35,969 bases of DNA from a virus (lineage: Duplodnaviria > Caudoviricetes), in IMG/VR virus record IMGVR_UViG_3300042366_000335, positions 1 to 35,969 of that record; one strand, 5' to 3'. Positions 13,437 through 34,229 of this stretch are shown piece after piece. Position 1 is the first letter of the stretch. Each line of letters opens with the position of its first letter. Under the pieces are notes generated by a model, which was not told where the DNA came from, did not search any database, and worked only from the letters and a program-made list of their open reading frames with translations. The translations under genes were made by a program, and so were the position numbers.

Positions 13437-13438
13437 GG

Positions 13439-14671: not shown

Positions 14672-14673
14672 GA

Positions 14674-15842: not shown

Positions 15843-16174
15843 GAAATCTCCCGACCCGAAGCGCGGATGTTGATGGCCGTGGCCGCTGACGCGATCGTGG
15901 AAATTGACCCGCCAGGAGCAAGCACGTGGCCGACGATTTCGGGGAACGTGTACGTCTCCGAGGGCAGCAGGGTTTTGCTTTTAATGATTAGGTTCTGGTT
16001 GCCGGCGTTATCAAACTGCGTCACAAGGTTGACCGAAATGGTCCGAGCCGACGTGTCGTAGTTAGTCGCCGTAAACTTGTCGATGATGGCCGACACGCCC
16101 GAGGCGCTGTACTGCGTCGTCTGGCTAGACTCCGCAATCTTGGCCGGAATTAAAACTCGTACGTTAACTGCCAT
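15839..16174 (-). CDS. small beta-rich virion protein
   Basis: 111 aa, Thr/Ser/Ile-rich, in the tail operon. Confidence 0.55.
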   Translation of the reverse strand: MAVNVRVLIPAKIAESSQTTQYSASGVSAIIDKFTATNYDTSARTISVNLVTQFDNAGNQNLIIKSKTLLPSETYTFPEIVGHVLAPGGSISTIASAATAINIRASGREIS

Positions 16175-16182
16175 GTGTCACC

Positions 16183-17609: not shown

Positions 17610-18310
17610 ACGTACACCTGCATAACGGTCAATATGATGGATGGAATCGCCGGCACGGGGGCAGCCGCCGCAAACGTCTGAAGCTGCACGTCAAGGCTGT
17701 CCACCGAAAAATATAACTGAAAATAGTCGCCGTTGGATAGCGGCAAGAAAAAGTTTGCAGCCGAGAAGATTTCGGCGTCGTTGCCCTGAATCTGAATCAA
17801 CGACCCAGAATTGGCGACCGCCGTGCCGTTGATGGCGGGCCAAATGTAAAACCTGCCGCTACCGCCTGAAGTCTTGTCCACCTGAATAGAGAACTGCACG
17901 TTGTAGACGGCAGGCCGCGCAACTTTGATTTTGCTGCTATCCGCCGGATCACGGTAGACGCCATACGCCGTGTCGGCGTTGTTGTAAGTAATGGCTTTAG
18001 CCGTATTGATAACGGTCGCCGCTTGAGTCTGGGTTGAAAAAAACGACCCAAAATTTACTACGTTGGGTTCGGGATAGCGGGGCATCAGTTTAAGCGCCTG
18101 TATCTCCGACTCCAGCACCGGCACGGTGTCTTCTACCGTAGCCGCCAATGCCGGGGTCAACTCAAGGTCAGCCGTCGTAATCTGCGTCGTGCCTGCGCCT
18201 GTCAGCGTGAACTGGTTGTTTAGAAACCTAAACCATTCGCGCGAAATGAGGCCCGTCCGCTCGTCAATGAACGGTACGCGAGGCGCCGGAATGTTAGTGA
18301 TATTAGGCAC
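17606..18310 (-). CDS. tail protein with a C-terminal beta-sandwich (tail needle/knob position)
   Basis: PAPRVPF..TGLISREWFRFL N-terminus directly after the gp10-like gene; VYNVQFSIQ C1q/BclA-like C-terminal domain. Confidence 0.6.
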   Translation of the reverse strand: MPNITNIPAPRVPFIDERTGLISREWFRFLNNQFTLTGAGTTQITTADLELTPALAATVEDTVPVLESEIQALKLMPRYPEPNVVNFGSFFSTQTQAATVINTAKAITYNNADTAYGVYRDPADSSKIKVARPAVYNVQFSIQVDKTSGGSGRFYIWPAINGTAVANSGSLIQIQGNDAEIFSAANFFLPLSNGDYFQLYFSVDSLDVQLQTFAAAAPVPAIPSIILTVMQVYV

Positions 18311-19820: not shown

Positions 19821-20611
19821 TAAAAGTTACCGGCGTAGATGTTGTACCGATTGCGACGGGCGATGATGCTGTACGGCATCGCCATAACGTTGTTGGGGTT
19901 GTTGATGCGCTTGAGGTTACGCTTGCTGTACATCGCAACGCGGCGCACGTCCGGCGCCGGCTCAACGCCAAACTCCGGCGCCAGTTCCAGCGCCAAGTTA
20001 TACCGGAACGCCCGCAAGTAGCCCGGCGGCATGAGGATTTCCGTACTGAGCGACGCGGGGTCCAACAGCCGCTGCACCGAAATAAAGTGGAACTCCAGCA
20101 CCCGATTTGGCACCGGATAGACCGACATGGAGATGTTTGGAAACGTATTGTTGACGAACATCACCTGCGGATAGGTGCTCTGCACGGTCTTGACTGCAAT
20201 GTTGTTGTACTGCAGCTGGTTGATGAACTTGATGCCGTACGACACGTTCGTAGACGGGTCGCGGAAAAAAGTCGAGTCATCAAGCAAAATCGGACGCTGC
20301 GCCACATTGTTCCCGTCTTCGACGGAAATGTAGTCATCGTCTTGCGTGGTAATCGGCACTTCGCTTTGAGTGCCAAGCAAATAAAGAAAATCGCCCGACG
20401 GGCCAAGCGTCTGAATACGCTCGCCGGCAGGCCACATGTAAGTCTGGTCTTGGGTGCAGAACACGGCGAGGCGCTCGGTGTTCCAGCTATCCACCATCTG
20501 ATCGAACGCCGAAAGTGCGTCCTGTGCCATCGAAGCCGACGGCGTTTCGCCCTCAGCCAAGATGCCCAGCAGACGCAGCGCCCCGTTGATTTGATCGCCC
20601 GCTGTCGCCAT
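19820..20611 (-). CDS. P22 gp4-like head-tail adaptor
   Basis: TAGDQINGALRLLGILAEGETP start and PPGYLRAFRYNLALELAPEFG near the end; TAATG-coupled to the gp10-like gene. Confidence 0.8.
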   Translation of the reverse strand: MATAGDQINGALRLLGILAEGETPSASMAQDALSAFDQMVDSWNTERLAVFCTQDQTYMWPAGERIQTLGPSGDFLYLLGTQSEVPITTQDDDYISVEDGNNVAQRPILLDDSTFFRDPSTNVSYGIKFINQLQYNNIAVKTVQSTYPQVMFVNNTFPNISMSVYPVPNRVLEFHFISVQRLLDPASLSTEILMPPGYLRAFRYNLALELAPEFGVEPAPDVRRVAMYSKRNLKRINNPNNVMAMPYSIIARRNRYNIYAGNF

Positions 20612-20614
20612 GAC

Positions 20615-20812
20615 CTACTCCTTCCGCTTTCGACGCGCCTTTAGCTCGTTAACGACCGGCATAGGTTCCGGCGACGCAGCAGGGTCTTCCTCCTGCGCCG
20701 CCGGTTCCATTGGGTCATATTCTTCCCACCCGTGCTCGTAGTCCATAGCCGCTTCCAAATCGGAAATGGCTATCTTTAGCCCATGCACGGGATGGCGAAG
20801 ATATATGTTCAT
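20615..20812 (-). CDS. hypothetical protein (65 aa)
   Basis: YLRHPVHGLKIA...GW, acidic middle and basic tail; in the head-completion cluster. Confidence 0.7.
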   Translation of the reverse strand: MNIYLRHPVHGLKIAISDLEAAMDYEHGWEEYDPMEPAAQEEDPAASPEPMPVVNELKARRKRKE

Positions 20813-20814
20813 AG

Positions 20815-21135
20815 TTACGGCAGAAGCCCGTAAGCCTGAAACCGCGACTCCAACTGAGCAACGCGAGTCTGGAGGTTTGCAACCACAGCCAACACCGTGT
20901 TGCCTTCGTTCTTAGTAACAAAGCCAAACGGGGTCGTCTGAGTCAAATCCTGAATCGCAAAGTCGGCCGGAGACGGGGGCGTGGACGTAATCGTCGTAAG
21001 CTGGGCCGTAAGAGCCGCACCTTCGGAAACCGGCGTCGTGCCGAAAAATCCGACCGTACCGCCTGCCGACCCAATTACCGCGCCGTCCAGCTCGGGGTCC
21101 GAAAACGCAACGCCAACCGCCTTAGTATTAGGCAT
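20815..21135 (-). CDS. putative head fibre/decoration protein
   Basis: TVGFFGTTPV motif, C-terminal coiled coil ending AYGLL; AGGAG SD. Confidence 0.6.
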   Translation of the reverse strand: MPNTKAVGVAFSDPELDGAVIGSAGGTVGFFGTTPVSEGAALTAQLTTITSTPPSPADFAIQDLTQTTPFGFVTKNEGNTVLAVVANLQTRVAQLESRFQAYGLLP

Positions 21136-21157
21136 ACAAAATACTCCTGTGAGCAGT

Positions 21158-21185
21158 GCCCCCTACGGTATCACCCGTAGGGGGC
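21158..21185. terminator. 11-bp intergenic hairpin after the capsid/decoration genes (attenuator or mRNA stabiliser)
   Basis: GCCCCCTACGG-TATCAC-CCGTAGGGGGC; no strong U-tract on either strand. Confidence 0.5.
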
Positions 21186-21193
21186 GTTTGCCA

Positions 21194-21595
21194 TTACGAA
21201 ATGCGGTAGACAGTCCAGGCATTGTCGCCGGTCTTGCGGCAACGGAAGTGGCCCGACGTACCCGCCGAAACCGCGCCCGCGCCCACAAGCGTCCAGCCCG
21301 TGCCAACCGCCACCGTAATCGCATCCGAACCGGCCGCGTCGATGTTGATGACAAAGAAGTCGAACGCCGCGTCCACCTTCTCAGCGGACGAGTAGGCCGC
21401 CTCCCAAAGAGCAACGGTCGGAAGGACAAGGTTGCCCGCCGTGCCGTTGAAGGTGAAAAGACCGTTCGCCAGCTCAGCCGGCGTCGCAGTCGCACCCGCC
21501 GTGAGCGCCGTGGGGGCGCCCTGCGGGAAGATCAGCGGTTCGCCGACATTACCAGCACCAACCTGGTAGCCACTAGTACCGTTAGGAATTGCCAT
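21194..21595 (-). CDS. putative capsid decoration (cement) protein
   Basis: 133 aa, Ala/Gly/Thr beta-rich, immediately after the coat gene, GGAG SD. Confidence 0.6.
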   Translation of the reverse strand: MAIPNGTSGYQVGAGNVGEPLIFPQGAPTALTAGATATPAELANGLFTFNGTAGNLVLPTVALWEAAYSSAEKVDAAFDFFVINIDAAGSDAITVAVGTGWTLVGAGAVSAGTSGHFRCRKTGDNAWTVYRIS

Positions 21596-21625
21596 TTTTA
21601 GTTACTCCGTGAATAAGGTTAAGAA

Positions 21626-22837
21626 TTAGCCCCAGATGCGGCAGGCCATCTGCGGACGGATCACCGAGTAGCCATACAGCACGTCGATACGGCAGGGCAT
21701 ACGGTCGTTGTTGATGTCGTACTGACGGACAACGCGCATGGAGATGCCGTTGTGGACCTGACGCGACGCCATGTCAACGCCCTGCGGGAGCAGGAGGTCG
21801 GCGGTGGCAAACGTAATCGCGTCCTTGTGGTACACCAAGTTCTGAGCGTACTGGCCGCTAGCGGCACCCACGTAGGTCACGACATCGCTAGCGGCCGGCA
21901 GCTTGCTGACCGTGGCGAGGGCGTGCGTCGGGCCGTAGACCGCCGGCAGGAACTCCACGTCCACGAACTCGGTAGCAGCCGAGGTGACGGTGTTCTGCAC
22001 AACGAACTGCTGCAGCGAACCGGTGGACTCGCGGGTCTGCGGGTTGACCGCAAACACGCCAGCGATGGTGAACACGTCGCCGGGGACGAGGGTGAGGCCG
22101 TCGGTCACGTTGTCGAGCGTCAGCTTGGTCGCACCGTTGACGAGCGTGGTCTTCACAATCGGGGTGTCCGAACGCGAGGCCGAGCCGTTGGTGTGCTGCT
22201 TGATCGACTGCGACATGTTGATTTCGTCGTAGCCGAGGACGCCTTCACCCATCATGCCGTTCTTGAACTGGCGGCTGATGGAGTCCACCGGGTTGAACAA
22301 GCCCTTCATGCCTTCGACGAGGCCAGCGTTGGCGGCCGGGTTGACGGTCGCGTAGCGCGGAGCCATGCCGGCGGCGGCTTCGTTCAGCTTCTGCTGGGCC
22401 TGCAAAAGAACCAGCGAGGTGCCGGGGGTGACGCCAGGCGTACCGACCGACTGATAGACCTTCTTGAAGCTGTTGGCCACATCGGCGTCGATGCTGGAAG
22501 CGAGCTGGCTGATACGCGGCTTAAGCACGCGCTCGGCGAAGTCGTCCAACTGGAGGGCCATTTCGGCGCTGGTGAAGTTGACGCCAATGTGCTTCTGCGA
22601 GGCGACGGTGAGCGTGGTGAACTGCTCGTTGTCGTCCTGCACCTGAAGCGCGGCGCCGTCGGTCACAAGGGCGCGATCCGGCAGACGGATGCGGAGGGTC
22701 GAACCGATCTTGGCACCTTCGACAGCGAAGCTGTCGTCGTACTGACGGTTCACGTTGCGGGTGATCACCAGGTTGTTCTCAAGGATTTCGAGAGCCTTCC
22801 GGGTGATCATGTCAATAGTAAGCAGCGTATTAGACAC
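21626..22837 (-). CDS. major capsid protein, P22 gp5 family
   Basis: NTLLTIDMITRKAL.ILEN, KIGSTLRIRLP, NLVYHKDAI and CRIDVLYG motifs; GTG start after GGAG; strongly biased codons. Confidence 0.93.
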   Translation of the reverse strand: MSNTLLTIDMITRKALEILENNLVITRNVNRQYDDSFAVEGAKIGSTLRIRLPDRALVTDGAALQVQDDNEQFTTLTVASQKHIGVNFTSAEMALQLDDFAERVLKPRISQLASSIDADVANSFKKVYQSVGTPGVTPGTSLVLLQAQQKLNEAAAGMAPRYATVNPAANAGLVEGMKGLFNPVDSISRQFKNGMMGEGVLGYDEINMSQSIKQHTNGSASRSDTPIVKTTLVNGATKLTLDNVTDGLTLVPGDVFTIAGVFAVNPQTRESTGSLQQFVVQNTVTSAATEFVDVEFLPAVYGPTHALATVSKLPAASDVVTYVGAASGQYAQNLVYHKDAITFATADLLLPQGVDMASRQVHNGISMRVVRQYDINNDRMPCRIDVLYGYSVIRPQMACRIWG

Positions 22838-22858
22838 AGTAAATCTCCAAAAAAGAAG

Positions 22859-23635
22859 TTAGCGGTTACGTCGGGCTTCCCACTGTTTAATCTGTCGCAG
22901 ACGCTCGGCTTCAATCCACTCTGACGTGCTCATGTCCTTGACGGAGCGGGGGTCAGTCGTGTCTCGGGCCGGTGCGCCGACGGTTTTAGCCGTCACAGGC
23001 TTAATCGGCGGGGGCGCATTAGTTGTCTTTTTGACCGGCGGATTGTCGGTCAACTTGACCTCAATCTTACCAATCTCCTTGGCTTGCAGGTATGGCGACA
23101 AACGGGAAATACGTTCAGCCTCGCGGGGGTTGGAGCCCAAGTAGTACGCTACGTCGGGGCCAACATCCGAAGCCTGAATCGTCTCGGCCATCACGTTCGT
23201 GATTGGCAACGCCCTGTTGTACACGACTTGCTCAAAGTCGTCGTACTTGTCAAAGGCCGCTTCCTCACGTTCCTTATAGGCCGTCAACAGCTCGCGCTGC
23301 TGCCGATCCGCCTCACGCTGGGCCAGCAATTCCTCCGCCTTACGGGCCGCAAGGGCTTCCGTATAAGCGTCGGGGTCGATGTCCCGGTCAGGCAGCGCGG
23401 CAGGCGTCTGGGCCATCGGCTCAGGCACTTTCAACGCTTGCTCTCGTTCCCACTTGCGACGTTCCCGTGCAAGTCGTTTACCTACCAGCGCGTCGAGCTC
23501 CTCTTGGGAGAACGTCTTGGCAGGCTTTTCCTCCGGCGGGGTTGCCTCTTGAGCAACAACTTCGGGTTCCGGTGCTGCCGTAGCTTCCGGTTCCGGCGCG
23601 GGTACTTGTTCCGCTACAACTTCGTTTTCAGACAT
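22859..23635 (-). CDS. scaffolding protein
   Basis: Acidic Pro/Glu N-terminus, FSQEELD..VGKRLARERRK coiled coil, GPDVAYYLGSNP and MSTSEWI; directly upstream of the coat gene; start 23635 after AAGGA. Confidence 0.85.
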   Translation of the reverse strand: MSENEVVAEQVPAPEPEATAAPEPEVVAQEATPPEEKPAKTFSQEELDALVGKRLARERRKWEREQALKVPEPMAQTPAALPDRDIDPDAYTEALAARKAEELLAQREADRQQRELLTAYKEREEAAFDKYDDFEQVVYNRALPITNVMAETIQASDVGPDVAYYLGSNPREAERISRLSPYLQAKEIGKIEVKLTDNPPVKKTTNAPPPIKPVTAKTVGAPARDTTDPRSVKDMSTSEWIEAERLRQIKQWEARRNR

Positions 23636-23654
23636 TTTGATTCCTTCAGAATCC

Positions 23655-23708
23655 CTGGTGAACCGCACCAGTACGGATAAATCGTACGCTGTTGCGTAAA
23701 AGAGTCAA
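23655..23708 (-). promoter_or_regulatory. internal promoter and 5'-leader hairpin for scaffold/coat
   Basis: TTGACT (23708-23703), 16 nt spacer, TACGAT (23686-23681); leader hairpin CTGGTG-CGGTT-CACCAG. Confidence 0.55.
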
Positions 23709-23714
23709 TACTTA

Positions 23715-24488
23715 TTACGGCCCAGCATCGCGCCATACGCCGGTGCTGTAGAAGTAAAGTTTGTTGTTTGTGGTGTCGACGACGATGGGTGCCATGCCCG
23801 TGATAGCGGTCGGCGTACCCGTAGGCGTACCCGCGCAGGTCGGGACATACAAGAAGCCGTTGGTCGCGGTCGTAGCAAGGGCGGCAGATGCGCCTGCGAC
23901 GACATTTCCGGCAACCGTGATGCGGAAGGCTTCGGTGCCATCGGAGAAACTGCTCGCCTGACGCCGATAAACAAACGCATCATCACCCGGCGGGAATCCG
24001 ATGATGCCGGAATTGCGGACGCCGGAAACGGCAAAAGCAACCAACGGCGATTTGGTGTCATTCGGCGCGACGATTTCCACCCTCGAATCATCCGCAGCTC
24101 CAGCTAGAGTGCGGGATCGCTGTGCAGATGCGGTGCCGGCGACATCCAAGGGAAAGCCCGGGGTGGTGGTGTTGATACCGACCCGGTTGTTGGCTGCGTC
24201 GATGGCAAGTACATTGGTGTCGAACGTGTTGTTGCCTGCGAAGTTTTGCGCTGCGTCGGTGCGGGCCGCTGTGAAGTTAGCGTCAGGGGTAGTCATAACG
24301 CGGGTCGTGCCAGCGCCGGGGCCTGCGACCTGCAGGATGCCGGTCGTCGCATTCGATCGCACGTTCTTGACCGTCAGGTCATCAGATGCGACCTTAACGG
24401 TGCTGCCGCTTTGAACAATAGGTAGTACCTCAGTACCCGCAAGCGGGGTAGAGGCGGCGGTAAGTTGGGAAATCTTTTTGTCAGCCAT
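23715..24488 (-). CDS. fibre protein with a KISQL N-terminal module
   Basis: MADKKISQL.., NNRVGINTTTP...LDVAG fibre repeat and DTTNNKLYFY...W C-terminus. Confidence 0.75.
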   Translation of the reverse strand: MADKKISQLTAASTPLAGTEVLPIVQSGSTVKVASDDLTVKNVRSNATTGILQVAGPGAGTTRVMTTPDANFTAARTDAAQNFAGNNTFDTNVLAIDAANNRVGINTTTPGFPLDVAGTASAQRSRTLAGAADDSRVEIVAPNDTKSPLVAFAVSGVRNSGIIGFPPGDDAFVYRRQASSFSDGTEAFRITVAGNVVAGASAALATTATNGFLYVPTCAGTPTGTPTAITGMAPIVVDTTNNKLYFYSTGVWRDAGP

Positions 24489-24506
24489 GATAACCTCTTA
24501 GGGTAC

Positions 24507-26447
24507 TCAACCTAAAAATGAAAGCGTAAAAGTACGACTGCTGCCAAGTCTATTTTTAATGCGAAGTTTATTATCCACAAACCAAACGTTAATTTTTCCG
24601 TCAATATCGGGATTTGATCCAGTCGTAGACGCTTCAAAATCATTAGGCGTTCTTGCAGCAATCACATAAACGTCATCATCGCCGCAAGCCAAAATAGCTT
24701 GAGAAGCTGAGTCATAATTAACGCTAATAGCAACTAACAGTCGGTTTGCAGTTACGCCGCGACGATCAAATGCGTGCGTTCCGTCATCAGCGATTGCAAC
24801 AGATTGCACCGACAGCGCGCCATGATTTTCGGCACCAGTAAGCGCGCCGTCCACCAGCATTGGAGTTTGACGCGTCGATTGTGTAGAGCCAACGTAATTA
24901 AGTTCAAATCCGCGAATGTTGAATCCGTTAACAATACCACCCCACCCCGCGTCGGCGTACGTTCCTGCTGCACGGAAAAACGGTTTGGCGTTAGCCGGGG
25001 TTTTTACGCCGTCAAGGTTAATGATGTTTGTAGCATTAAGAATGCGGCCAGCGTTGGTATTTGCGACAAGCATCGCAGCTTGAGTAATTTTTGCGACCGA
25101 AATGTTGTTAAGCGACAAAAAGCCGACGTTTGACGGGGGAAAATCGCTAGAAACGATGCCAAGTACGCCATTACGATTAACTATTACGTTTGACAATGAA
25201 ACCAAAGGCCGGTCAATCGTGTCGTTATAGCCAAGCGTGGCGGACATTATTAAATTTATGTCGGCATTTGCAATGCCAGATTTAATTTCGTTATAAACCG
25301 TCAATCCATCGACTATTGCACCTGTTGATTTTTCGTCGTAATAAGCGCCTTGATAGACCGACGTTAGGGTAACGCTACCGTTGAGCGGAGATGTTGCAAC
25401 ACCGCCACTTAAATAGTCGTAATACATAAACGTGATGTCGTTGATAGTTCCAACGCCATACTGCAAGTCAATTTCTACGCTACCACCAGAAAGGCAATAC
25501 CCATCATTACGAATAATTTTTTCATCGTTGATGTTAGCAATGCCTTGAACCTTGATGGCTCGACCACGGCAGTTGGTGTACGTATTTCCGCTAGAAATAA
25601 ACAGCGATGGCGGAAACACTTTGTGTGATCCGTCTGCGCTAGGAAAGTTTGACGGGTTGGGAGAAGCAAAAACGATTCCGTCATAGTCAAAGTTCGCAGC
25701 AGACCCCGCAGCATCGCCGCCAGAAATGTTACTGATTGAATTTCCGGTATGGATACATTGATAAATCCATCGAAGTTCGCCCCCACCAAGATTGACAACG
25801 GACGCGCCAATTCCGGTGGTGCCGGAAATGCTGACTATTCCAGTACCTGCGGCGCGGGTAATGTTTTCTATTCGGTTTTCCGCTATGTAAACGGTATTGA
25901 AAGACCCCGCAACCAACAAGCCAAAATTGCGGTCGGTGACGGCAAGCATTCTGAAGTTTTTGAATACGCAACCTTTGACTGTTGCGTTTGGCAGATTGCT
26001 TGTCATTGGCGTAGTGTTTCTTACATACACGCCGCCAGCCGCCAAGTTTGATCCAATAAAGGTCAAGCCAGAAAGGATAAAATTGTAGCCGCCACAAACA
26101 AACGTCCAGATGTTGTTGGCAAGTGCGTCACCAGAGTAAGTAATAACGCCCTCACCATAAATCTCAAGATCGTTAATGAGGCTAATAGTGTAGGTATCGG
26201 TAACAATGTAGTTACCTTTTGGAAAATAAATTGACTTTGCGCCCGAAGCAACAGCCGCTTGCAGCGCCGCTGTGCAATCCGTTACGCCGGTTGAATCGGC
26301 TCCAAAATCTAAAATGCTGACAAATTGGCGAATCTGGTCAATGGTTGCTTTTACCGTGATGTTGTTTCCATCAACGATAGGCAACACGCTGGCCCCAGAA
26401 ATAGGCTCAACAGCGGCAGGCAGTTCAGAAATTTTAATGATTGCCAT
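24507..26447 (-). CDS. tailspike/depolymerase-like beta-helix protein with a KISEL N-terminal module
   Basis: VSILDFGADSTGVTDCTAALQAA...IYFPKGNY pectate-lyase-3-like entry motif; Asn/Ile/Gly-rich beta-helix; visibly AT-richer DNA. Confidence 0.8.
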   Translation of the reverse strand: MAIIKISELPAAVEPISGASVLPIVDGNNITVKATIDQIRQFVSILDFGADSTGVTDCTAALQAAVASGAKSIYFPKGNYIVTDTYTISLINDLEIYGEGVITYSGDALANNIWTFVCGGYNFILSGLTFIGSNLAAGGVYVRNTTPMTSNLPNATVKGCVFKNFRMLAVTDRNFGLLVAGSFNTVYIAENRIENITRAAGTGIVSISGTTGIGASVVNLGGGELRWIYQCIHTGNSISNISGGDAAGSAANFDYDGIVFASPNPSNFPSADGSHKVFPPSLFISSGNTYTNCRGRAIKVQGIANINDEKIIRNDGYCLSGGSVEIDLQYGVGTINDITFMYYDYLSGGVATSPLNGSVTLTSVYQGAYYDEKSTGAIVDGLTVYNEIKSGIANADINLIMSATLGYNDTIDRPLVSLSNVIVNRNGVLGIVSSDFPPSNVGFLSLNNISVAKITQAAMLVANTNAGRILNATNIINLDGVKTPANAKPFFRAAGTYADAGWGGIVNGFNIRGFELNYVGSTQSTRQTPMLVDGALTGAENHGALSVQSVAIADDGTHAFDRRGVTANRLLVAISVNYDSASQAILACGDDDVYVIAARTPNDFEASTTGSNPDIDGKINVWFVDNKLRIKNRLGSSRTFTLSFLG

Positions 26448-26450
26448 TCA

Positions 26451-26612
26451 TCACTCCAGCAGCAGCAAGCCGCCGTTCTCTTGCACCAAGTTTTCGCCGG
26501 TTTCGGTTTCCAGATTGCCAAATATCACGTCGCTTGCGTAGCCCGTCAAAAACGAAGCAATGCCGCCAAGCCCTAGCCCGACCGCATTTCGCAAACCAAC
26601 TCCGAAGCTCAT
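26451..26612 (-). CDS. 53-aa putative spike adaptor peptide (not in the ORF track)
   Basis: MSFGVGLRNAVGLGLGGIASFLTGYASDVIFGNLETETGENLVQENGGLLLLE*; ATGA overlap with the upstream gene; fills the gap between neighbours. Confidence 0.75.
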   Translation of the reverse strand: MSFGVGLRNAVGLGLGGIASFLTGYASDVIFGNLETETGENLVQENGGLLLLE

Positions 26613-26911
26613 CGGATGTTGATGGGCTTGGCGTACAAGTCGCCGTCAGCCGTTACGCGAATGGCACTCACTCGCCAGGGCGCGCCAGTGCCTTGCGGCA
26701 CAATAAACGGAATTGGCGTGTTGGCCGGGATCGGAGTGCTGGAAGTCGTTGCCGTCACGCCTTCCCCCACGACCACGTACGCGGCTGACGTACACCATAC
26801 CACTACGCCCTGCGGGCCGGACTGCCAAGTCGCCGTAGAGCCTGCGGTGCCCGTGTACGCTACCGTACGACCGGGGTATACGGCATCGGCCATCGGATTA
26901 AGAAGTTCCAT
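26609..26911 (-). CDS. small beta-rich virion protein (possible head-spike base)
   Basis: 100 aa, all-beta composition, in the late operon. Confidence 0.6.
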   Translation of the reverse strand: MELLNPMADAVYPGRTVAYTGTAGSTATWQSGPQGVVVWCTSAAYVVVGEGVTATTSSTPIPANTPIPFIVPQGTGAPWRVSAIRVTADGDLYAKPINIR

Positions 26912-26920
26912 GTTCTACCC

Positions 26921-27283
26921 TCACGCTAAGAAGCGCAGTTTATAAAGCGTAGAAAGATACAGCGCAACTATTTCATCAATGATGTTCTGGATGGCCGTAT
27001 CGCTCTCGTCACAAAATTTATAGCGGTTGGCCTCAATCTCGGCCAGCGATTCTTGCAGAAATTCGATGATATTGGCGTTTTTCTTGGCCGATTGAAGCGT
27101 GATGGCGCCAATCAGCGCGTGCCGGCCTTGATAGGCTTCGGCAAAGTCGTCCGCCAGCCCTACGATGCCCTCATAAAATGCCTGAAGGGCTACATGCTTG
27201 GCGTAGCTGCGCGTATTCAGATGAACCGAATGAGCGACATCCCGCGCCAGAAACAAATTGCCTACAAAGTCAGCGGCTTTCAT
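26921..27283 (-). CDS. Dps/ferritin-like four-helix protein (DUF5856-like)
   Basis: HSVHL...YAKHVAL..FYE.....DDFAEAYQG and NIIDEI...LYKLRFL pattern; ATGA-coupled to the portal gene. Confidence 0.7.
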   Translation of the reverse strand: MKAADFVGNLFLARDVAHSVHLNTRSYAKHVALQAFYEGIVGLADDFAEAYQGRHALIGAITLQSAKKNANIIEFLQESLAEIEANRYKFCDESDTAIQNIIDEIVALYLSTLYKLRFLA

Positions 27284-29460
27284 TGCATACCTTCTGGCGG
27301 CATAGCCGCCGGTTCCATCTGGGGCGTAACGCGCTCGGCAGACGGCGGCACAAGCTCGCCCGTAGACAGCATGCCCGCCAGCGTACCCATGATAATGTCT
27401 TGAACCTGTTGGTCGTTCAAGCCGCTTTCAACGCTCTTGATACGGTCGGTTTCAGCTTGGTACGCCTTGATTTGAGCCTCAAACTCCTTGACCTGCACCT
27501 CGCGGGCGTCCATGGACTGCTGCACCTGCTGCAGCATTGAGTGCATCATTTCCATCTCTTGCGCCATCGTTTGCATCTGCATGTTGGCAGCCTGCAACGC
27601 CGGGTCTTCCTCGTCCGCCAGCAGCTTCGGATCAATCATCTTCTGAAGCCGCTTGCTAATTTCCTGAGCGCCCGGCCAGTCCATGTTCTTGACGAACAGA
27701 TCGCCGGCAACCGACCAAAGCTGCGGGTTAGCCTGCAAAATCTGCCCCATGGCGTCCATGGCTTCCTGCCGCTTGGTCGCGTAAGACGGGCCGGTCGTGA
27801 CCGCCACGTCGTACTTGCCCACCGACGGGTTGTAGATTTTCTCAATCACCACGCCCGTCTCGTCCACGATGCGACGCACCGGTTCGGCCTGCATCGGGTC
27901 TATACGGGCGGTCGATGTCTCGCCGTCCAAGCCGATGATGCGCGCGATGCGCTGGGTGTCGTAAATCTTCGGAATCAAATCAACGAGTTGGCGCGTCCCA
28001 TAGCGGATAGCACGAGCGAGGTTGTCTACAAAGTGGTATGTGCCTGTGTCGCCTTGCCGTTCACGCGCCAAGATGGCCCGACCGGTGCGCTCGTTGGAGC
28101 GCATGCCGAGACTTGCATCATACTGGCCGGTAGAGGCCTTGATGTCGTCGGCAGCGCCCATTTTCGCCTGAATCAAGCCCGTCTGGGCGAGCGGCGGAGG
28201 TGCGCGTTGTGGCAGCGGCAGGATGTTTCCCTGCCCGTCTGTCACGTCGGGGTTAACTTCTAGGTACGGCCAGTTGGTCGTGTTGGCCGTCTTCCATTGG
28301 GTTTCGTAGCCTTCAAACTGGCCACCATAGCCAATAAACGGCGCCTTGGGGGCCAAAGCCAGCATCTCGGCTTCTTGGGACACCCAGTAGTTGTACATGC
28401 GCTGGGCGTCCTTGGCGTTACGCACAAGGCCCGACACGTACATACGGCCGTCTACTTCAAACTCGTTGCCGATCACGCGGATTACAGGAATCCACCTACC
28501 CGGCCATTCGGACGATTCCAGAATCTCGTAGCCGTTGGTTTTCAGCCACTTAACGCGCTTAACGTCAACTTCGCGCTTGCGGATGGGCTGGAGGCCCAGC
28601 ATCTCAAGCTCACGCGCCTCGGGCGAACCCGCGTACGCCGTTTGGTTGCCGGCGTACAGGTTCAGCGTTTCTCGGCTGTGCTCTTTGTAGAAATACTCAG
28701 CAATACGGACAGTATTCTGGTTGATCCACTGCGACAGCGCCTGGTCGCCGACACCGCGCTGCATAACCGTTGAAATCGGCTCTGCATTGGGGTACATGCG
28801 CTCAAAATCCGACTTCTGGATGTCTTCGGTAATGAAGCACCACTCCGCATCCGCCCCGCAAGGGTCTTGGATGGTCGGGTCCATAAACACACTGAAGCTA
28901 TTTCGGATGCGACCGATACGAAGATCTTGGTCAAACGTGTTCTCGTCGCAGTATTCCGTCAAAATGCGGAAATACCCTTCGCCGTACGTGACCTGGTTGT
29001 CGCACGCGGTGTCGTAGGCGACATCCGCATCGGAAATATACTCAATGTGACGGACAATTCCGTCAAAAATCTCCGCGACCTCAATGTCCGCCTTGTCATC
29101 AACCGGGATGACCTTGCCGGCCGGCCGGTTCTGACGCTGATCGTTCGTTACCTGCCGTACGTGCAGCGGCAGCTTGTTGATTGTAAGGCACGGGCGCGCG
29201 TTGAGCGTCTGCCCCTGCACCGACCCGCGCTGCGCGAGCACGTCCTGCGGCCACTGCCACTGGTTGTCGGGCGAGCCTGCCATGAAGCGCAGGTCGTCCA
29301 GCTCGTCCTCACGACTGTCGGAGTACGCCGCCAGCGCCATCGTGAAACGGGAACGGGCGGTTGCCAGCACGTCCGCCGGATCGCGCGAGGCTTTGCCTCG
29401 GTCGGTGGGCGTGTTAGCGACGCGTGCCGCGCCGCGCAGCCCTGTGGGGTCTTTAGCCAT
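27280..29460 (-). CDS. portal protein, P22 gp1-like
   Basis: DDLRF..G..QW, RPCLTINKL, GLVRNAKDAQRMYNY, GRAILARERQG and GKYDVAVTTGPSYATKRQEA; Gln-rich barrel helix. Confidence 0.93.
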   Translation of the reverse strand: MAKDPTGLRGAARVANTPTDRGKASRDPADVLATARSRFTMALAAYSDSREDELDDLRFMAGSPDNQWQWPQDVLAQRGSVQGQTLNARPCLTINKLPLHVRQVTNDQRQNRPAGKVIPVDDKADIEVAEIFDGIVRHIEYISDADVAYDTACDNQVTYGEGYFRILTEYCDENTFDQDLRIGRIRNSFSVFMDPTIQDPCGADAEWCFITEDIQKSDFERMYPNAEPISTVMQRGVGDQALSQWINQNTVRIAEYFYKEHSRETLNLYAGNQTAYAGSPEARELEMLGLQPIRKREVDVKRVKWLKTNGYEILESSEWPGRWIPVIRVIGNEFEVDGRMYVSGLVRNAKDAQRMYNYWVSQEAEMLALAPKAPFIGYGGQFEGYETQWKTANTTNWPYLEVNPDVTDGQGNILPLPQRAPPPLAQTGLIQAKMGAADDIKASTGQYDASLGMRSNERTGRAILARERQGDTGTYHFVDNLARAIRYGTRQLVDLIPKIYDTQRIARIIGLDGETSTARIDPMQAEPVRRIVDETGVVIEKIYNPSVGKYDVAVTTGPSYATKRQEAMDAMGQILQANPQLWSVAGDLFVKNMDWPGAQEISKRLQKMIDPKLLADEEDPALQAANMQMQTMAQEMEMMHSMLQQVQQSMDAREVQVKEFEAQIKAYQAETDRIKSVESGLNDQQVQDIIMGTLAGMLSTGELVPPSAERVTPQMEPAAMPPEGMQ

Positions 29461-29600
29461 TATTTGCGCTTCTTACCTTGAGCCTTACGCTTGACGGAAT
29501 ACGCAATCGCCACGGCCTGCTTCTGCGGCTTGCCGGCCTTCATTTCGGCCTTGACATTCGTGCGGAAGGCAGACTTGCTGCCAGACTTGACGAGGGGCAT
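29460..29600 (-). CDS. 46-aa very basic protein (not in the ORF track)
   Basis: MPLVKSGSKSAFRTNVKAEMKAGKPQKQAVAIAYSVKRKAQGKKRK*; TAATG overlaps at both ends. Confidence 0.8.
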   Translation of the reverse strand: MPLVKSGSKSAFRTNVKAEMKAGKPQKQAVAIAYSVKRKAQGKKRK

Positions 29601-29785
29601 TAACGCTTCCTCATCGGCGTGGGACGAAAGTCAACAGTCGTACGGATAACGTCCGGGCGCCGCATCGGCATGCGCATCGGCTGCGCCGGGCGCTGCATCG
29701 GCTGCTGGGCCTGCGAACCGACCACCATGTCCTTAACCAGCGCGCGCGGGTTCACGCCAATCGGGTTGTACGGAATTCTAGCCAT
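29600..29785 (-). CDS. 61-aa Pro/Met/Arg-rich small protein
   Basis: AGAGG SD; TAATG coupling to the next gene. Confidence 0.65.
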   Translation of the reverse strand: MARIPYNPIGVNPRALVKDMVVGSQAQQPMQRPAQPMRMPMRRPDVIRTTVDFRPTPMRKR

Positions 29786-29789
29786 AAAA

Positions 29790-29942
29790 TTACCTCTTTT
29801 TAGCCGTTTTAGCCGACTGACGGAACGCCTTGGCGGTGGGCGCGCCCTTGCTGCCAGGCTTGCGCATCTTCTCCCCCGACCCTGCCTTGATCCGTTCGCG
29901 CTTGGCGTGGATATTAGCGTACAAACCCGTTTTAGCGGCCAT
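29790..29942 (-). CDS. 50-aa very basic protein (not in the ORF track)
   Basis: MAAKTGLYANIHAKRERIKAGSGEKMRKPGSKGAPTAKAFRQSAKTAKKR*; TAATG overlap with the upstream gene. Confidence 0.8.
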   Translation of the reverse strand: MAAKTGLYANIHAKRERIKAGSGEKMRKPGSKGAPTAKAFRQSAKTAKKR

Positions 29943-30205
29943 TAGTTGCACTTCCAGCGTCTAAGCGACGCCTTTGCTCGTTCAGCCGGCCCTTTGGCCT
30001 TGGCTACAACGCCCTTCATTCGCGCGCAAAAAGACTTCTTACGCCCTGCGTCCGCCTTAGTCTTCGGACTCGGGGCCGGAGCCTTCAAGTTGCTGCCCGT
30101 AGCGCGGTTATACTTAGCCCGACCCTTGGCCGTCAAGCCCGCGCCCTTAGACACGGGCTGCTTCTCGCCCCGACCGACCGACAGACTGACCGTTTTGCGC
30201 GCCAT
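29942..30205 (-). CDS. 87-aa very basic protein (DUF6321-like)
   Basis: GLTAKGRAKYN...NLKAP...RKKSFCARM...SLRRWKC; TAATG-coupled to terL. Confidence 0.8.
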   Translation of the reverse strand: MARKTVSLSVGRGEKQPVSKGAGLTAKGRAKYNRATGSNLKAPAPSPKTKADAGRKKSFCARMKGVVAKAKGPAERAKASLRRWKCN

Positions 30206-31731
30206 TAGGCTCCCATCCAGCTGCTTGTCATGCTGCCTCCACGCTCGGCGGCGATGCGTCTTGGCTTGTCCCGCGCCTCGCGGTTAGCGAGCGGGTAGGC
30301 GAAGGTGACGGCGAGCGCGTCCGCTGCGTCGGGTGACGCTTGGCCGCGAGCTTTCATCTCCTTCTTCCCTTCCAAGAACAGCGTACCTGACGAGTTAGGC
30401 TTGACGTGGGGGCCGCACAGGTCCGACTTAAGGAGCCGATCTGTCGGGATGCTCGCCGAGCGTAGCCACTCCCGCATGTCGCCCCACATCTCTGCCCGCT
30501 TGTTGCCCCACATCACCGGGTTCTTGGCCTTCCAGCCAAAGTTCACCCCACGTACCTTATACCTCTGCTCTTTTAGCCGGTCAAGTACGCCGTAGCCCAA
30601 ACCGCCCTCGTCGATGACGGTGAGCGCGGGGTTGAACTCCTCAATAGCGTCAATAACGCGACCGACGGTCGTCATGGTGTCCTCGCCTCGGTGGCGCCGG
30701 ATTGCAACAATGTCGCGCCCCTGCCTTACGACGATGACGGTCGAGTCAGCGCCCCCGCGCGCGGGGTCAACGCCAATCACCCGAGGGGCGCTTTCATCCT
30801 TGAAACGAACTCTTGCCATAGCTTCGTCCACCAGGCGAGGACTGATGAACTGGTCGTCTCCGTCGGAGGGGAACTCTCCATACACTTCGACCTTGGCTTG
30901 GCTGCTGTCGGCGCCGTACTCGGCGATGATCTGCTCGTAGACCGCTTTGTCGGTGTCTTCGACTTGGCGCGCGTCGATGTTTTGCGTTGTCCAGAACTCT
31001 CTTTTCGCGTTGAAGCACTCATAGAAATATCCCTCGTTGCGTCGCGGGTTGCTAAAGGCCATCCAAAAGCGATGCGGCGTGTTCTCCGTAAAGAAGCCCG
31101 CCGTCACCGACCAGATACTGTCGGGGATACCACTGGCCTCATCGAAGATGACCATCACGCCGTCGTGGTTGTGTACGCCCGCGTACGCATCGGGGTTCTC
31201 CTCCGACCAGAGTCGCCCTTCGACCGACCAGTACCGCGTGCCTTTCTTAAGGTCGCGCTCGACGATCTCCGCGAGCCACTTGGCCGGCATCACGCGCGTC
31301 GCGCTTACCTCAAACCAATGGCTGTTGATGAGCAGCGCCAGCCACTTAGTCACCTCGGCCCAAGTAACCGAGCGTAGCTGCGCCTCGCTGTTAGCCGACA
31401 CGATGGTCGTCGAGCCTATGCGGGTCGCTAGCATCCATAGGATGAGCCAGCTCACCAAGGCCGACTTACCGATACCGCGCCCCGAGGCGGTGGCCATGCG
31501 CAAGACCTCATAACTGGTCGCCGTCTTGTTCTTGGCGATGTGCGCGGCGATGTCCCGCAGCACCTTGCGCTGCCACCGCCTCGGGCCGTCAAAGTGCTCA
31601 AGCGGCGTCCCCTTCTGCTTCCACGGGAACGCAAACAGCACGAACGCCTCTGGGTCGTCCTTGATGGCCGGCGCCCAGAGTCGGGACATAATCTGCTGCT
31701 CGTCGTCGGCGCTATATATCGGCGTTTGCAT
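30205..31731 (-). CDS. terL: terminase large subunit
   Basis: Walker A SGRGIGKS, Walker B VIFDEAS, coupling motif SNP, nuclease IGVDPARGGAD and SPDAADALA. Confidence 0.93.
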   Translation of the reverse strand: MQTPIYSADDEQQIMSRLWAPAIKDDPEAFVLFAFPWKQKGTPLEHFDGPRRWQRKVLRDIAAHIAKNKTATSYEVLRMATASGRGIGKSALVSWLILWMLATRIGSTTIVSANSEAQLRSVTWAEVTKWLALLINSHWFEVSATRVMPAKWLAEIVERDLKKGTRYWSVEGRLWSEENPDAYAGVHNHDGVMVIFDEASGIPDSIWSVTAGFFTENTPHRFWMAFSNPRRNEGYFYECFNAKREFWTTQNIDARQVEDTDKAVYEQIIAEYGADSSQAKVEVYGEFPSDGDDQFISPRLVDEAMARVRFKDESAPRVIGVDPARGGADSTVIVVRQGRDIVAIRRHRGEDTMTTVGRVIDAIEEFNPALTVIDEGGLGYGVLDRLKEQRYKVRGVNFGWKAKNPVMWGNKRAEMWGDMREWLRSASIPTDRLLKSDLCGPHVKPNSSGTLFLEGKKEMKARGQASPDAADALAVTFAYPLANREARDKPRRIAAERGGSMTSSWMGA

Positions 31732-32194
31732 ATTCGGAGTGCTGCTCCAGATTTACAAGCCTGGGCGATGCGTCTTGGGTCAGTGCAGCCGGTGCTGGCG
31801 ACAATACTCGGCCATTGATGACGCGAGACTCCGCCTCTTGCAGCGCCGCGATGACGCTGATCTGCTGCGTGACATCCACTTGGACCTGCTGCTTCGCCAC
31901 CCAGCCATGCACGTGCTGAAGGATAGCGAGAGCCGCCTTGCTATCGCCATTTCTAGCCGCCTCGCGCAGCTGAACGGCGGCTTCAACCTCCCCATCGGCG
32001 CGGCCTTTGGCTTCGGCCATCTCGGCCAGGGGGTCCATTTGGCATAAGCGACGGTATTCCGTAGGCAGCATCCCCGCCGCCAAGGCAAGTCTATCACCCT
32101 TCAGCCCGAGCGCCGCCGCGTCATAGATGGCCTGAAGCCGCGTCTCGGTCGCCTTAATCTCGCGTGGCTCAAACGGGAGCGATTTGAACGTCAT
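31712..32194 (-). CDS. terS: terminase small subunit
   Basis: HTH-like N-terminus, AKGRADG...GDSKAALAILQ..HGW and ISVIAALQEA; directly upstream of terL; start MTFKSLPF at 32194. Confidence 0.75.
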   Translation of the reverse strand: MTFKSLPFEPREIKATETRLQAIYDAAALGLKGDRLALAAGMLPTEYRRLCQMDPLAEMAEAKGRADGEVEAAVQLREAARNGDSKAALAILQHVHGWVAKQQVQVDVTQQISVIAALQEAESRVINGRVLSPAPAALTQDASPRLVNLEQHSEYANADI

Positions 32195-32200
32195 GCCGTG

Positions 32201-32229
32201 ACTGTAATGACCGCGTAAGTAAAAAACAA
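32201..32229 (-). promoter_or_regulatory. possible late promoter giving a leaderless terS mRNA
   Basis: TTGTTT (32229-32224), 17 nt spacer, TACAGT (32206-32201), ATG 6 nt later; no SD. Confidence 0.45.
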
Positions 32230-32376
32230 GCGATGTGCAGGATTGTCCTGCCGGGAGGCCGCGATCCACAACAACCGTGTGGCCTGTGTGCCGGGGCGGA
32301 GATTGCCTTAGATGGTGGGCGGGGAAACCCTTCAGCTACCTCCCGGTCGCTACGTGCGCATCACGTCAGACATCGC
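32221..32376 (-). ncRNA. candidate structured ncRNA (~150 nt, end-paired multi-branch fold)
   Basis: Nested helices GCGAUGU/ACAUCGC, ACGUG/CACGU, CCGGGAGG/CCUCCCGG and GCAGG/CCUGC plus three inner hairpins; extended -10 upstream; UUGUUUUUU downstream. Confidence 0.6.
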
Positions 32377-32382
32377 GCCGCG

Positions 32383-32393
32383 AGAATAGCACA
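32383..32393 (-). promoter_or_regulatory. extended -10 promoter for the ncRNA candidate
   Basis: TGTGC-TATTCT, then GC-rich CGCGGC, placing +1 at about 32376; A/T tract at about 32420-32438 upstream. Confidence 0.5.
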
Positions 32394-32492
32394 AGGTTTT
32401 GGTTTACGGGCTAGCGGGTAAAAAAATAAAAAATTTTTACGACCCCATAGCACTAGGTACAACCACCGCGCGGGCCGGCCCACCCCCCTAGT

Positions 32493-32513: not shown

Positions 32514-32542
32514 TTCAGCCTGGGCGCGGCGAGCCGCGCGGT

Positions 32543-32640
32543 CGTCAGCCGTCAGCCGTCAGCCGTCAGCCGTCAGCCGTCAGCCGTCAGCCGTCAGCCG
32601 TCAGCCGTCAGCCGTCAGCCGTCAGCCGTCAGCCGTCAAC
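32543..32640. repeat. tandem heptamer array (CGTCAGC)13 + CGTCAAC
   Basis: 98 nt with a 7-bp period, read directly from the sequence. Confidence 0.95.
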
Positions 32641-32642
32641 GT

Positions 32643-33012
32643 TGTGGGCAATGTGGGCAATGCGTTTTCAATCGGTAGCCAACGGCCATGCGGCGCATTG
32701 CGGTGGCGCGTGTGGGCAATGTGGGCAACCTAAAACAGATTGCCCACATTGCCCACAAATCGGGGGGCGTGGGCAGGTTGTGGGCAATGTGGGCAATTGT
32801 GGCATTACCCACAGCATCGCGTAAGCGTCTACAGTTATCCCTTACATCTACGCATACTGTACGTCTATACAGTAATAACATTTTTCTAATTAATATAGAA
32901 AACCATTACCCACATTGCCCACAATCCCATCCGCGCCCTATGTTTATAGGCACTTGCGTGTGGGCAATTTGGCTCGATTTGACTACCCACACCATTACCC
33001 ACATTGCCCACA
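32643..33012. repeat. cluster of ~15 9-bp TGTGGG(C/T)AA repeats in both orientations around an AT-rich core; putative replication origin
   Basis: TGTGGGCAA at 32643, 32652, 32711, 32720, 32779, 32788, 32959; TTGCCCACA at 32740, 32749, 32915, 33004; TTACCCACA at 32805, 32906, 32995; AT-rich at about 32870-32902. Confidence 0.85.
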
Positions 33013-33032
33013 CACGATTTGTAAGAAAATGC

Positions 33033-33539: not shown

Positions 33540-34229
33540 ATGTACACACTCACCGTTTCTCTTGCCACCCTGCGCGCCGCCCGCACCCACGCCGCCGAAA
33601 ATGACGTGCGCGCGTACTTGAAGGGCATCTATCTGGATACCGCCGCCGGTAAGGTTGTCGCCACCGATGGACACCGCCTGTTTGCCGCCAACGCGCGCGG
33701 CGTCAAGTCTGTATACCCTGCAGTCATCATCCCGAACGAAACGATTGACGCCGCGTTGAAGCAATTTACCGGCGAATACGCGCGCGGCAAGTCGCTGGGC
33801 ACGGTCGACGTTACTGTTACGATTGACGAAACGGCCGTGGCTATCGGCACGCCGACGGGTTCCGTTACCGGCCGCACATTGGACGGCCGTTTCCCTGAGT
33901 GGCGCCGCGTCGTCCCTAAAGCTGAGGACGTAGGTGAGCACGTGCCGGCCGTGCTCAACACTCAGTACCTCGCCGACGCGTGCGAGGCGCTCTCCATCGC
34001 GCGAAACGTGCCGAAGAAGAAAGCCGGACAACACGGCATCCGTATCCACATGCGCGGCGAATTTCCGACTGTAGTGACGGACAACACCATCGGCGTGCTC
34101 GCGCTCGTTATGCCCATGCGTAACGACTTGACGGCCGACGTTGCGCGCATGGCGTGCCGCATGGCGCACGATGACGCGTTGCCGTACAGCGCGGACACGG
34201 CCGCCGCCGTCGCCGAAGAAGCCGCCTAA
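33540..34229 (+). CDS. DNA polymerase III beta-clamp-like protein, truncated to about two domains
   Basis: RAYLKGIYL, VVATDGHRL, GRFPEWRRVVP, LNTQYL and LVMPMR match DnaN middle- and C-terminal-domain motifs; AAAGGA SD. Confidence 0.8.
   Translation: MYTLTVSLATLRAARTHAAENDVRAYLKGIYLDTAAGKVVATDGHRLFAANARGVKSVYPAVIIPNETIDAALKQFTGEYARGKSLGTVDVTVTIDETAVAIGTPTGSVTGRTLDGRFPEWRRVVPKAEDVGEHVPAVLNTQYLADACEALSIARNVPKKKAGQHGIRIHMRGEFPTVVTDNTIGVLALVMPMRNDLTADVARMACRMAHDDALPYSADTAAAVAEEAA

What the first reader, a model, noticed from the sequence alone, without database searches (positions are those of the whole stretch)
32221..32393. Candidate ~150-nt cloverleaf-like ncRNA with its own promoter and U-tract, directly upstream of terS
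Seen: on the minus strand an extended -10 (TGTGC-TATTCT) and a GC-rich 6-nt discriminator put +1 at about 32376, the first base of a 7-bp helix (GCGAUGU/ACAUCGC) that pairs the 5' and 3' ends; UUGUUUUUU follows immediately. Inside is a four-way junction: a 5-bp hairpin (ACGUG/CACGU), a long arm (CCGGGAGG/CCUCCCGG, extendable by a G-U pair) enclosing three small hairpins (GGG-UUUC-CCC, GGC-AAUCUCC-GCC, CCACA-CGGUUGU-UGUGG), and a 5-bp hairpin GCAGG-ACAAU-CCUGC abutting the 3' strand of the terminal helix. A loop-loop pairing CAAUC/GGUUG is possible. Established: a 7-bp acceptor stem stacked on a 5-bp T-arm is the tRNA/tmRNA/YrlA tRNA-like geometry, and phi29 uses a packaging RNA. Here there is no TTCGA T-loop and no CCA, so it is not a tRNA. 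Inference: a phage stable RNA, possibly a tRNA mimic or decoy, a late-transcription regulator (its U-tract doubles as the -35 of the putative terS promoter), or a packaging-associated RNA. I do not recognise the family.
Basis: partly seen in the sequence, partly recalled or inferred. Interest (0 to 1): 0.82.

Follow-up and report, generated by a model that had tools for sequence, protein, structure and literature searches.

The report
Orphan knotted RNA ahead of terminase
A conserved 112-207-base non-coding element that matches no catalogued RNA family sits just ahead of the DNA-packaging genes in three unrelated groups of aquatic phages and is missing from some close relatives; it is likely a stable RNA with a predicted knotted fold that would act late in infection by binding a host factor.

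Summary
The RNA is real; part of the proposed fold and the tRNA/pRNA reading are not supported. Window 32376-32230 (-) has no Rfam or ARAGORN hit and folds no better than shuffles (z 0.02). Yet 74 distinct copies occur in phage contigs, with sharp ends, 46 of 125 invariant core positions and tree-corrected covariation in four helices. The long arm CCGGGAGG/CCUCCCGG is refuted: its 5' strand covaries with 32295-32291 (73 of 74 copies, against 24 of 74). A pseudoknot is likely but rests on 1-2 changes. A -10 hexamer lies 5-8 nt before +1 in 47 of 51 flanks (shuffles 8); the U-tract is not conserved (12 of 54). A terminase gene follows in 57 of 57 copies, across three unrelated lineages. A near-identical phage has lost the RNA, and no phage protein tracks it, so a pRNA role is unlikely. 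Best reading (about 0.35): optional late-operon cargo RNA binding a host factor, perhaps as a counter-defence decoy. Rivals: put-like leader, new ribozyme. Function untested.

The parts
32383..32391 (-). Predicted extended -10 promoter of the RNA (TG-C-TATTCT), 6 nt before +1
   Evidence: TAnnnT 5-8 nt before P1 in 47 of 51 distinct flanks, shuffle mean 8.1, max 17
32230..32376 (-). The RNA, 147 nt here (112-207 nt in the family); element position n = window 32377-n
32370..32376 (-). P1 5' strand; pairs with 32236-32230 (7 bp here, 5 bp conserved)
   Evidence: pair 3-145 E 0.020, 5-143 E 0.067
32352..32366 (-). P2 hairpin, 5 bp, conserved loop RUGCG; preceded by invariant CUG (32369-32367)
   Evidence: pairs 13-23 and 14-22 E 0.007
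32347..32350 (-). Predicted P3 5' strand GCGA; would pair with 32264-32261 (UCGC)
   Evidence: invariant in 54 of 54 rows, so untested by covariation
32339..32346 (-). P4 5' strand CCGGG plus GG; pairs with 32295-32291 and, less surely, 32299-32298
   Evidence: pair 34-83 E 0.027; four pairs kept in 73 of 74 copies
32317..32330 (-). Length-variable peripheral hairpin, absent from the 112-nt minimal form
32305..32308 (-). Predicted pseudoknot 5' strand AGGC; would pair with 32259-32256 (GCCU)
   Evidence: paired in 52/52 to 54/54 rows; compensatory changes only in the L071 and L519 types, not significant
32284..32290 (-). Invariant junction strand CACACAG
32266..32282 (-). P5 hairpin, 5 bp, loop YGGWNGU; loop YGG could pair with invariant CCG (32254-32252)
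   Evidence: pairs 97-109 E 0.027, 98-108 E 0.013, 96-110 E 0.053; CGG/CCG 70, UGG/CCG 4 of 74
32237..32251 (-). P6 hairpin, 5 bp, variable 4-7-nt loop, abutting the P1 3' strand
   Evidence: 54 of 54 paired, two independent double changes, E 7-10
32201..32229 (-). U-rich trailer overlapping a predicted second promoter (TTGTTT-17-TACAGT) that would give a leaderless terS mRNA
31712..32194 (-). Putative terS, 160 aa (position before terL; no Pfam or PHROG hit; weak match to the annotated TerS of DSL-LC05)
30205..31731 (-). terL, 508 aa
   Evidence: phrog_2 E 3.5e-46; Terminase_6N/6C

Best explanation
It is an optional, conserved structured element at the front of the phage packaging operon that is likely transcribed from its own sigma70-type promoter into a stable RNA with a predicted pseudoknotted core, and that would act by binding a host factor, most likely as a decoy against a host defence or RNA-surveillance protein just before terminase, portal and capsid are made. 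Shown: conservation, sharp ends, covarying helices P1/P2/P4/P5, position, patchy and cross-lineage distribution, absence of a co-distributed phage protein. Inferred: the start site, a discrete stable product (3' end by trimming or termination), P3 and the pseudoknots, a host partner, and the decoy role.
For: Ends clamped by a covarying helix whose first base lies 5-8 nt after a -10 hexamer in 47 of 51 flanks. Invariant core with freely varying peripheral stems and a 112-nt minimal form. 15 G-U against 2 A-C cells favour RNA of this strand. Terminase gene downstream on the same strand in 57 of 57 pattern-found contexts. Found in three lineages; the 56-kb one has no tblastn match to the window's TerL, portal or capsid, and no protein is common to RNA-positive and missing from RNA-negative genomes (21 genomes), so a partner would be host-encoded. 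One copy in 12 of 18 near-complete records that I chose; 4 gains or losses on the TerS tree; a clean loss leaving 13 nt in 4 contigs while L016, with the same trailer, keeps the RNA. The same slot holds other cargo: pqqA and an HNH gene, with ArdC nearby in L207. The window-type terS has its own leaderless promoter, so it does not need this leader. Precedent for cargo sRNAs after a late promoter (PMC4104026, passages) and for late stable RNAs of unknown function in T4 (PMC9697503, passage). Weak hint: an RNA-library contig ends at 32377, one base from the predicted +1 (X5), another at 32364 (X1).
Against: No partner, target or defence system was identified; the host is unknown. No conserved terminator (12 of 54). 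RNA-library contigs run from the element into terS (X1, X5), so a discrete product is not shown. One X11 record crosses the promoter, and contigs give no strand or level and may be DNA. In several copies (e.g. L071, L129, L181, L198, L225, L791) terS starts within about 25 nt of the RNA with no room for a second promoter, which fits a cis leader equally well. A fixed position in 57 of 57 is also what a cis element would give.
Confidence: 0.35

Rival explanations
1. Cis-acting 5' leader of the late transcript that works like HK022 put: it binds host RNA polymerase to suppress pausing and termination, or shields the late mRNA from decay.
For: First transcribed element of the late operon in 57 of 57; starts at +1; no conserved terminator; read-through contigs; needs no phage protein; put lies downstream of its promoter and acts over 10 kb (PMC9378689, passage).
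Against: put is about 70 nt with two stem-loops, unlike this multi-junction fold; a second promoter directly behind it bypasses it in many copies; no excess of terminator-like sites in window 13000-32400 (20 found, 22.7 in shuffles); dispensable in G003.
Confidence: 0.22
2. New class of catalytic RNA (self-cleaving or cofactor-dependent) that processes the 5' end of the late transcript.
For: 46 of 125 invariant columns, many predicted unpaired at junctions; one likely and up to two possible further pseudoknots; compact 112-nt core; mobile and independent of phage proteins.
Against: No Rfam ribozyme model matches even at E 10; no circularly permuted form among 119 5'-half matches, of which 113 had the 3' half downstream and 6 were chance; contigs span the element unbroken; a promoter fixed at the first base is not needed for cleavage.
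Confidence: 0.18
3. Metabolite-sensing riboswitch-like leader that gates entry into packaging.
For: Aptamer-like conservation pattern and a 5'-leader position.
Against: No common expression platform: trailers vary from U-tracts to Shine-Dalgarno-like words to a second promoter; the downstream gene differs among lineages.
Confidence: 0.08
4. Packaging RNA like phi29 pRNA, oligomerising through the YGG loop and CCG and binding the prohead or terminase.
For: Always beside terminase genes; predicted three-way junction; invariant complementary triplets.
Against: Lost in G003, whose TerL, portal and capsid are 88-96% identical to the window's; absent from 6 of 18 near-complete records; shared by phages with unrelated motors; pRNAs go with phi29-type gp10/gp16 and have covarying loops (PMC12670572, results part 1).
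Confidence: 0.07
5. A DNA-level signal (pac, terminus or protein-binding site), or chance folding.
For: Lies next to a repeat-rich non-coding region; MFE not above shuffles.
Against: Compensatory changes in four helices, G-U bias on one strand, long inserted hairpins, promoter in register.
Confidence: 0.04

Closest known systems
T4 RNAC/RNAD (PMC9697503, passage)
   Same: Phage-encoded small RNAs of the late phase with unknown function.
   Different: No sequence comparison was made. This element has no CCA end, no conserved T-loop, and lies before terminase genes.
tRNA / tmRNA / YrlA tRNA-like domain (features recalled)
   Same: Terminal helix next to a 5-bp stem with conserved GG/CC; hairpin ending at position 25, an unpaired purine at 26, a large arm starting at 27.
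   Different: No ARAGORN or Rfam hit, no CCA, variable 4-7-nt loop in place of the T-loop, P1 often 5 bp, no anticodon loop or tag frame.
HK022 put RNA (PMC9378689, abstract summary and passages)
   Same: Protein-free RNA element downstream of a phage promoter at the head of an operon.
   Different: put is about 70 nt with two stem-loops at early promoters; this is 112-207 nt, end-paired and multi-junction, at the late operon.
phi29 pRNA (PMC12670572, abstract and results part 1)
   Same: Structured phage RNA tied by position to packaging genes, with a predicted three-way junction.
   Different: Dispensable, found with TerS/TerL motors of unrelated lineages, no covarying loop pair.
Lambdoid anti-sRNAs AgvB/AsxR (PMC4104026, passages)
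   Same: Cargo RNA in the moron slot after a late promoter, acting on a host regulator; a C/A-rich word.
   Different: Those are 51-60 nt and Hfq-bound; the word here is CACACAG inside a junction, not CACAACA at a free 5' end.
cabRNA of staphylococcal phages (PMC10686824, search listing only)
   Same: Structured RNA from the terminase region with a link to host defence.
   Different: cabRNA comes from within the terminase genes and triggers defence; this element is intergenic with its own promoter.
Candidate structured RNAs of Fremin et al. 2023 (PMC10690425)
   Same: Same source collection (IMG/VR); the list includes candidates upstream of terminase genes.
   Different: Their alignments could not be read here, so an unnamed entry for part of this RNA is not excluded.

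Membership tests
Any Rfam 15 family | Covariance-model match at gathering score | tested here: not met
   0 hits in the window; none over the element at E<=10; none over L519, L071, L189 copies at E<=1
tRNA | ARAGORN cloverleaf with anticodon arm | tested here: not met
tRNA | 7-nt T-loop consensus | tested here: not met
   17 loop variants, 4-7 nt; 1 of 74 T-loop-like
tRNA | 7-bp acceptor stem next to a 5-bp T-stem | tested here: inconclusive
   met in the window; outer P1 pairs formed in 43 and 45 of 54 rows
tRNA | Encoded or added CCA and aminoacylation | not testable with these tools
   no encoded CCA in the window
tmRNA | tRNA-like domain plus tag reading frame | tested here: not met
   no ARAGORN or Rfam call; lengths fall in all three frames and the minimal form is 112 nt
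phi29-type pRNA | Genome with phi29-type connector and gp16 ATPase | tested here: not met
   Terminase_6 TerL, phrog_156 portal, putative TerS
phi29-type pRNA | Required for packaging | tested here: not met
   natural loss in near-identical G003; indirect
   YGG/CCG complementary in 74 of 74 but with no double change
HK022 put antiterminator | About 70 nt, two stem-loops | tested here: not met
HK022 put antiterminator | Downstream of a promoter, in cis to an operon | tested here: met
HK022 put antiterminator | Binds RNA polymerase and suppresses termination | not testable with these tools
   needs in vitro transcription
Hfq-bound prophage anti-sRNA | 51-60 nt with a free 5' seed | tested here: not met
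   ends paired, 112-207 nt
Known self-cleaving ribozyme classes | Match to class models | tested here: not met
Known self-cleaving ribozyme classes | Site-specific self-cleavage | not testable with these tools
   bench assay needed
Intrinsic terminator | Conserved hairpin plus U-tract | tested here: not met
   0 sites; U-tract in 12 of 54 trailers

The most novel reading that the evidence does not exclude
A new class of phage functional RNA with a multiply pseudoknotted ~110-nt core, passed among unrelated aquatic phages as a protein-free module at the head of the packaging operon, that is either an RNA-only counter-defence factor or a new ribozyme class.
Probability: 0.35. Interest if true: 0.9.

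Novelty: categorically new. Interest (0 to 1): 0.72.

Why it matters
At the level of RNA families it fits none that could be tested. New, well-covarying ncRNA classes with pseudoknots are rare and have yielded ribozymes and riboswitches (own knowledge). The 112-nt natural minimal form makes cleavage, probing, ligand and polymerase assays directly doable, and a natural plus/minus pair of near-identical phages exists. A protein-free module fixed before terminase genes in unrelated phages would be a new layer of late-phase control or counter-defence. Caveats: function is untested, the rating refers to the RNA class and not to a shown mechanism, and it may be an unnamed entry in a published candidate list whose alignments I could not read.

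Tried and rejected
Rfam, ARAGORN: nothing. Cultured phages (50,697 records): no match with two query forms; DSL-LC05 lacks it. Cellular copies: none among 120 pattern hits in genome contigs (scan covered 52 of 64 parts); 0 of 151 genomes of one betaproteobacterial order and 0 of 151 of an alphaproteobacterial class sample; not found in those searched. More divergent members: a loose pattern, a short-form pattern and the metagenome scan (59 stretches) gave only known types or chance hits; the covariance model found one more ordinary copy and nothing remote in 92 sources; 80 loci of L189-type terS relatives held it only in the two L189-lineage contigs. Coding role: the overlapping 62-aa frame on the + strand is rejected because copies differ by indels in all three frames. 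Partner protein: none. Host: not found. Runs X3, X4, X6, X7, X11: small shares; higher depth over the element in X4 and X7 is explained by cross-strain conservation and is not counted; X4 is probably DNA; X2 and X6 have no cover of the element. Earlier findings: none in four look-ups. Literature searches that found no description of this RNA. Recalled likenesses to glmS, SRP helix 8, the sarcin-ricin loop and group I/II cores were dropped because the shared words are explained by P4 pairing and no model matched.

Full report
Context. The window is a 36-kb tailed-phage record with terL, portal, capsid, DNA polymerase and primase. The element lies between a repeat-rich non-coding region and a putative terS. 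TerL relatives come from a spring and a lake and lake-water runs hold the stretch, so the habitat is aquatic; the host is unknown.

Observation. Alone they prove little: no Rfam or ARAGORN hit, folding z 0.02, and no promoter or terminator at this site from the consensus scan.

Homologs. Loci fetched with TerS and TerL gave 88 profile hits among 160 partly redundant loci. Identity to the window is 72-90% inside the element and 47-58% in the 60 nt upstream for eight examples. A 3'-half pattern listed 119 stretches, about 170 estimated; two were chance. An independent 5'-half pattern listed 119, about 190 estimated; 113 also carry the 3' half. Parsing gave 74 distinct full-length copies, 112-207 nt, including a divergent form (L071) and a minimal form (L519, L522).

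Structure. On 54 distinct core rows of 125 columns (variable hairpins and the P6 loop left out; alignment anchored by hand), my R-scape-like test with 150 tree-based nulls gave E<0.05 for pairs 13-23, 14-22 (P2), 97-109, 98-108 (P5), 3-145 (P1) and 34-83 (P4), and 0.053 and 0.067 for 96-110 and 5-143. Four non-pairing correlations among positions 13, 14, 22 and 23 also passed; they follow from the linked swap of two pairs. P6 is paired in 54 of 54 with two independent double changes but is not significant (E 7-10). On a MAFFT alignment of 18 chosen copies, 97.7% of cells pair and 22 of 43 pairs change on both sides, against 35-43% paired when slid; the structure was derived from these sequences, so this is not independent. 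The freed strand 117-122 is complementary to the loop enclosed by P4 in all three forms, which would make a pseudoknot; support is one or two events, an alternative partner at 36-38 fits all but the minimal form, and three of its four pairs break for one row in the MAFFT alignment. P3 (GCGA/UCGC), YGG/CCG and CUG/CAG are complementary in every row but show no double change, so they are untested. If P3 forms, the top is a four-way junction with tRNA-like spacing and the third arm is an expanded three-way domain. 46 of 125 columns are invariant, and helices hold 15 G-U against 2 A-C cells.

Expression. TAnnnT lies 5-8 nt before P1 in 47 of 51 distinct flanks (shuffles 8.1, maximum 17); a U-rich tail occurs in 12 of 54 trailers. 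Window-type copies have a second predicted promoter for a leaderless terS, also seen where the RNA is lost; others run within about 25 nt into the gene. In RNA-library contigs, X5 ends at 32377 and X1 at 32364 with adapter, both continuing into terS. A probably-DNA run has a record spanning 32229-32378, and an X11 record crosses the promoter. This is a weak hint of a 5' end, not proof of a discrete RNA.

Distribution. Of 84 contexts found by RNA patterns, 57 had at least 1.5 kb downstream; all 57 have a terminase gene on the same strand within 2.5 kb. Three lineages are involved: the window's, L189's and L207/L519/L812's; the 56-kb lineage shows no tblastn match to the window's TerL, portal or capsid. 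Of 34 records that I selected, 22 carry one copy, 12 of 18 among near-complete ones. G003 is 97-100% identical in primase and polymerase and 88-96% in TerL, portal and capsid, yet keeps only the last 13 nt. The TerS tree (58 rows, 32 with RNA; loci with under 700 nt upstream and no RNA were dropped) needs 4 changes. No protein tracks the RNA across 21 genomes. The slot also holds pqqA or an HNH gene in relatives. No cellular or cultured-phage copy was found in what was searched.

Mechanism. An element that is invariant in its core, needs no phage protein, moves between unrelated phages and can be lost must act alone or on something of the host (inference). I favour a stable late RNA that binds a host factor, most likely as a decoy, because its distribution resembles counter-defence cargo and terminase, portal and capsid are recalled triggers of host defence (recalled, no call). 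Confidence 0.35. A put-like cis leader (0.22) and a new ribozyme (0.18) are serious rivals; riboswitch (0.08), pRNA (0.07) and DNA signal (0.04) are weak.

Known systems. It fails the testable defining features of tRNA, tmRNA, pRNA, put, anti-sRNAs and catalogued ribozymes (see membership test). Papers seen: PMC10690425, passages and four readable supplement files, which gave no match for sequence words or two contig ids, while the alignment archives were unreadable; PMC12670572, abstract and results part 1; PMC9378689, summary and passages; PMC9697503, passages; PMC4104026, passages; PMC10686824, listing only. Searches showed no description of this RNA; the library lacks most subscription papers.

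Verdict. Observation partly confirmed, interpretation partly supported. A real, apparently undescribed phage ncRNA class with a corrected fold and untested function. Interest 0.72.

Noticed in passing
L131:2379-2450 and the same slot in L134, L137, L138, L140, L143, L144, L145: pqqA (TIGR02107 E 5.6e-10 for L131) before terS in more distant relatives that lack the RNA; suggests PQQ-using hosts for that clade.
   Followed up: partly
L131: about 2473-2560 (also L134, L135, L137, L138, L140, L145): A second, unrelated conserved ~90-nt non-coding element with complementary ends (GGGCG/CGCCC) between pqqA and the terS promoter; no Rfam hit, z 0.10 for a slightly offset stretch.
   Followed up: partly
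window 32529-32659: About 13 tandem copies of a heptamer (GGCTGAC on the minus strand); relatives carry other short tandem units at the same place.
   Followed up: no
window 32637-33016: Many direct and inverted copies of TGTGGGCAA units; similar 9-mer repeats in relatives; possible origin or genome-end region between divergent gene blocks.
   Followed up: no
window 32415-32490: G-run, GGCC, then an A-tract/T-tract, kept upstream of terS in relatives with and without the RNA; candidate pac or terminus signal.
   Followed up: no
L001:1061-1561: HNH_3 endonuclease gene (weak AP2 match) directly upstream of an RNA copy identical to the window's; could mobilise the slot.
   Followed up: partly
L058:2305-2508: 67-aa Cys-rich leaderless ORF of no family between the RNA and terS in one subgroup.
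   Followed up: partly
L074, L080, L105, L208 just 3' of the RNA: An additional conserved hairpin-like insert of about 35 nt follows the RNA in some copies.
   Followed up: no
L207:3002-3901: ArdC-like anti-restriction gene on the opposite strand between terS and the RNA.
   Followed up: partly
window 7403-7479 (+): ARAGORN tRNA-Ala call lies inside an SNF2 helicase ORF and has no Rfam support; probably spurious.
   Followed up: partly
window 33540-34229 (+): Phage ORF with a DNA polymerase III beta-clamp central domain (PF02767 E 3.8e-08).
   Followed up: no
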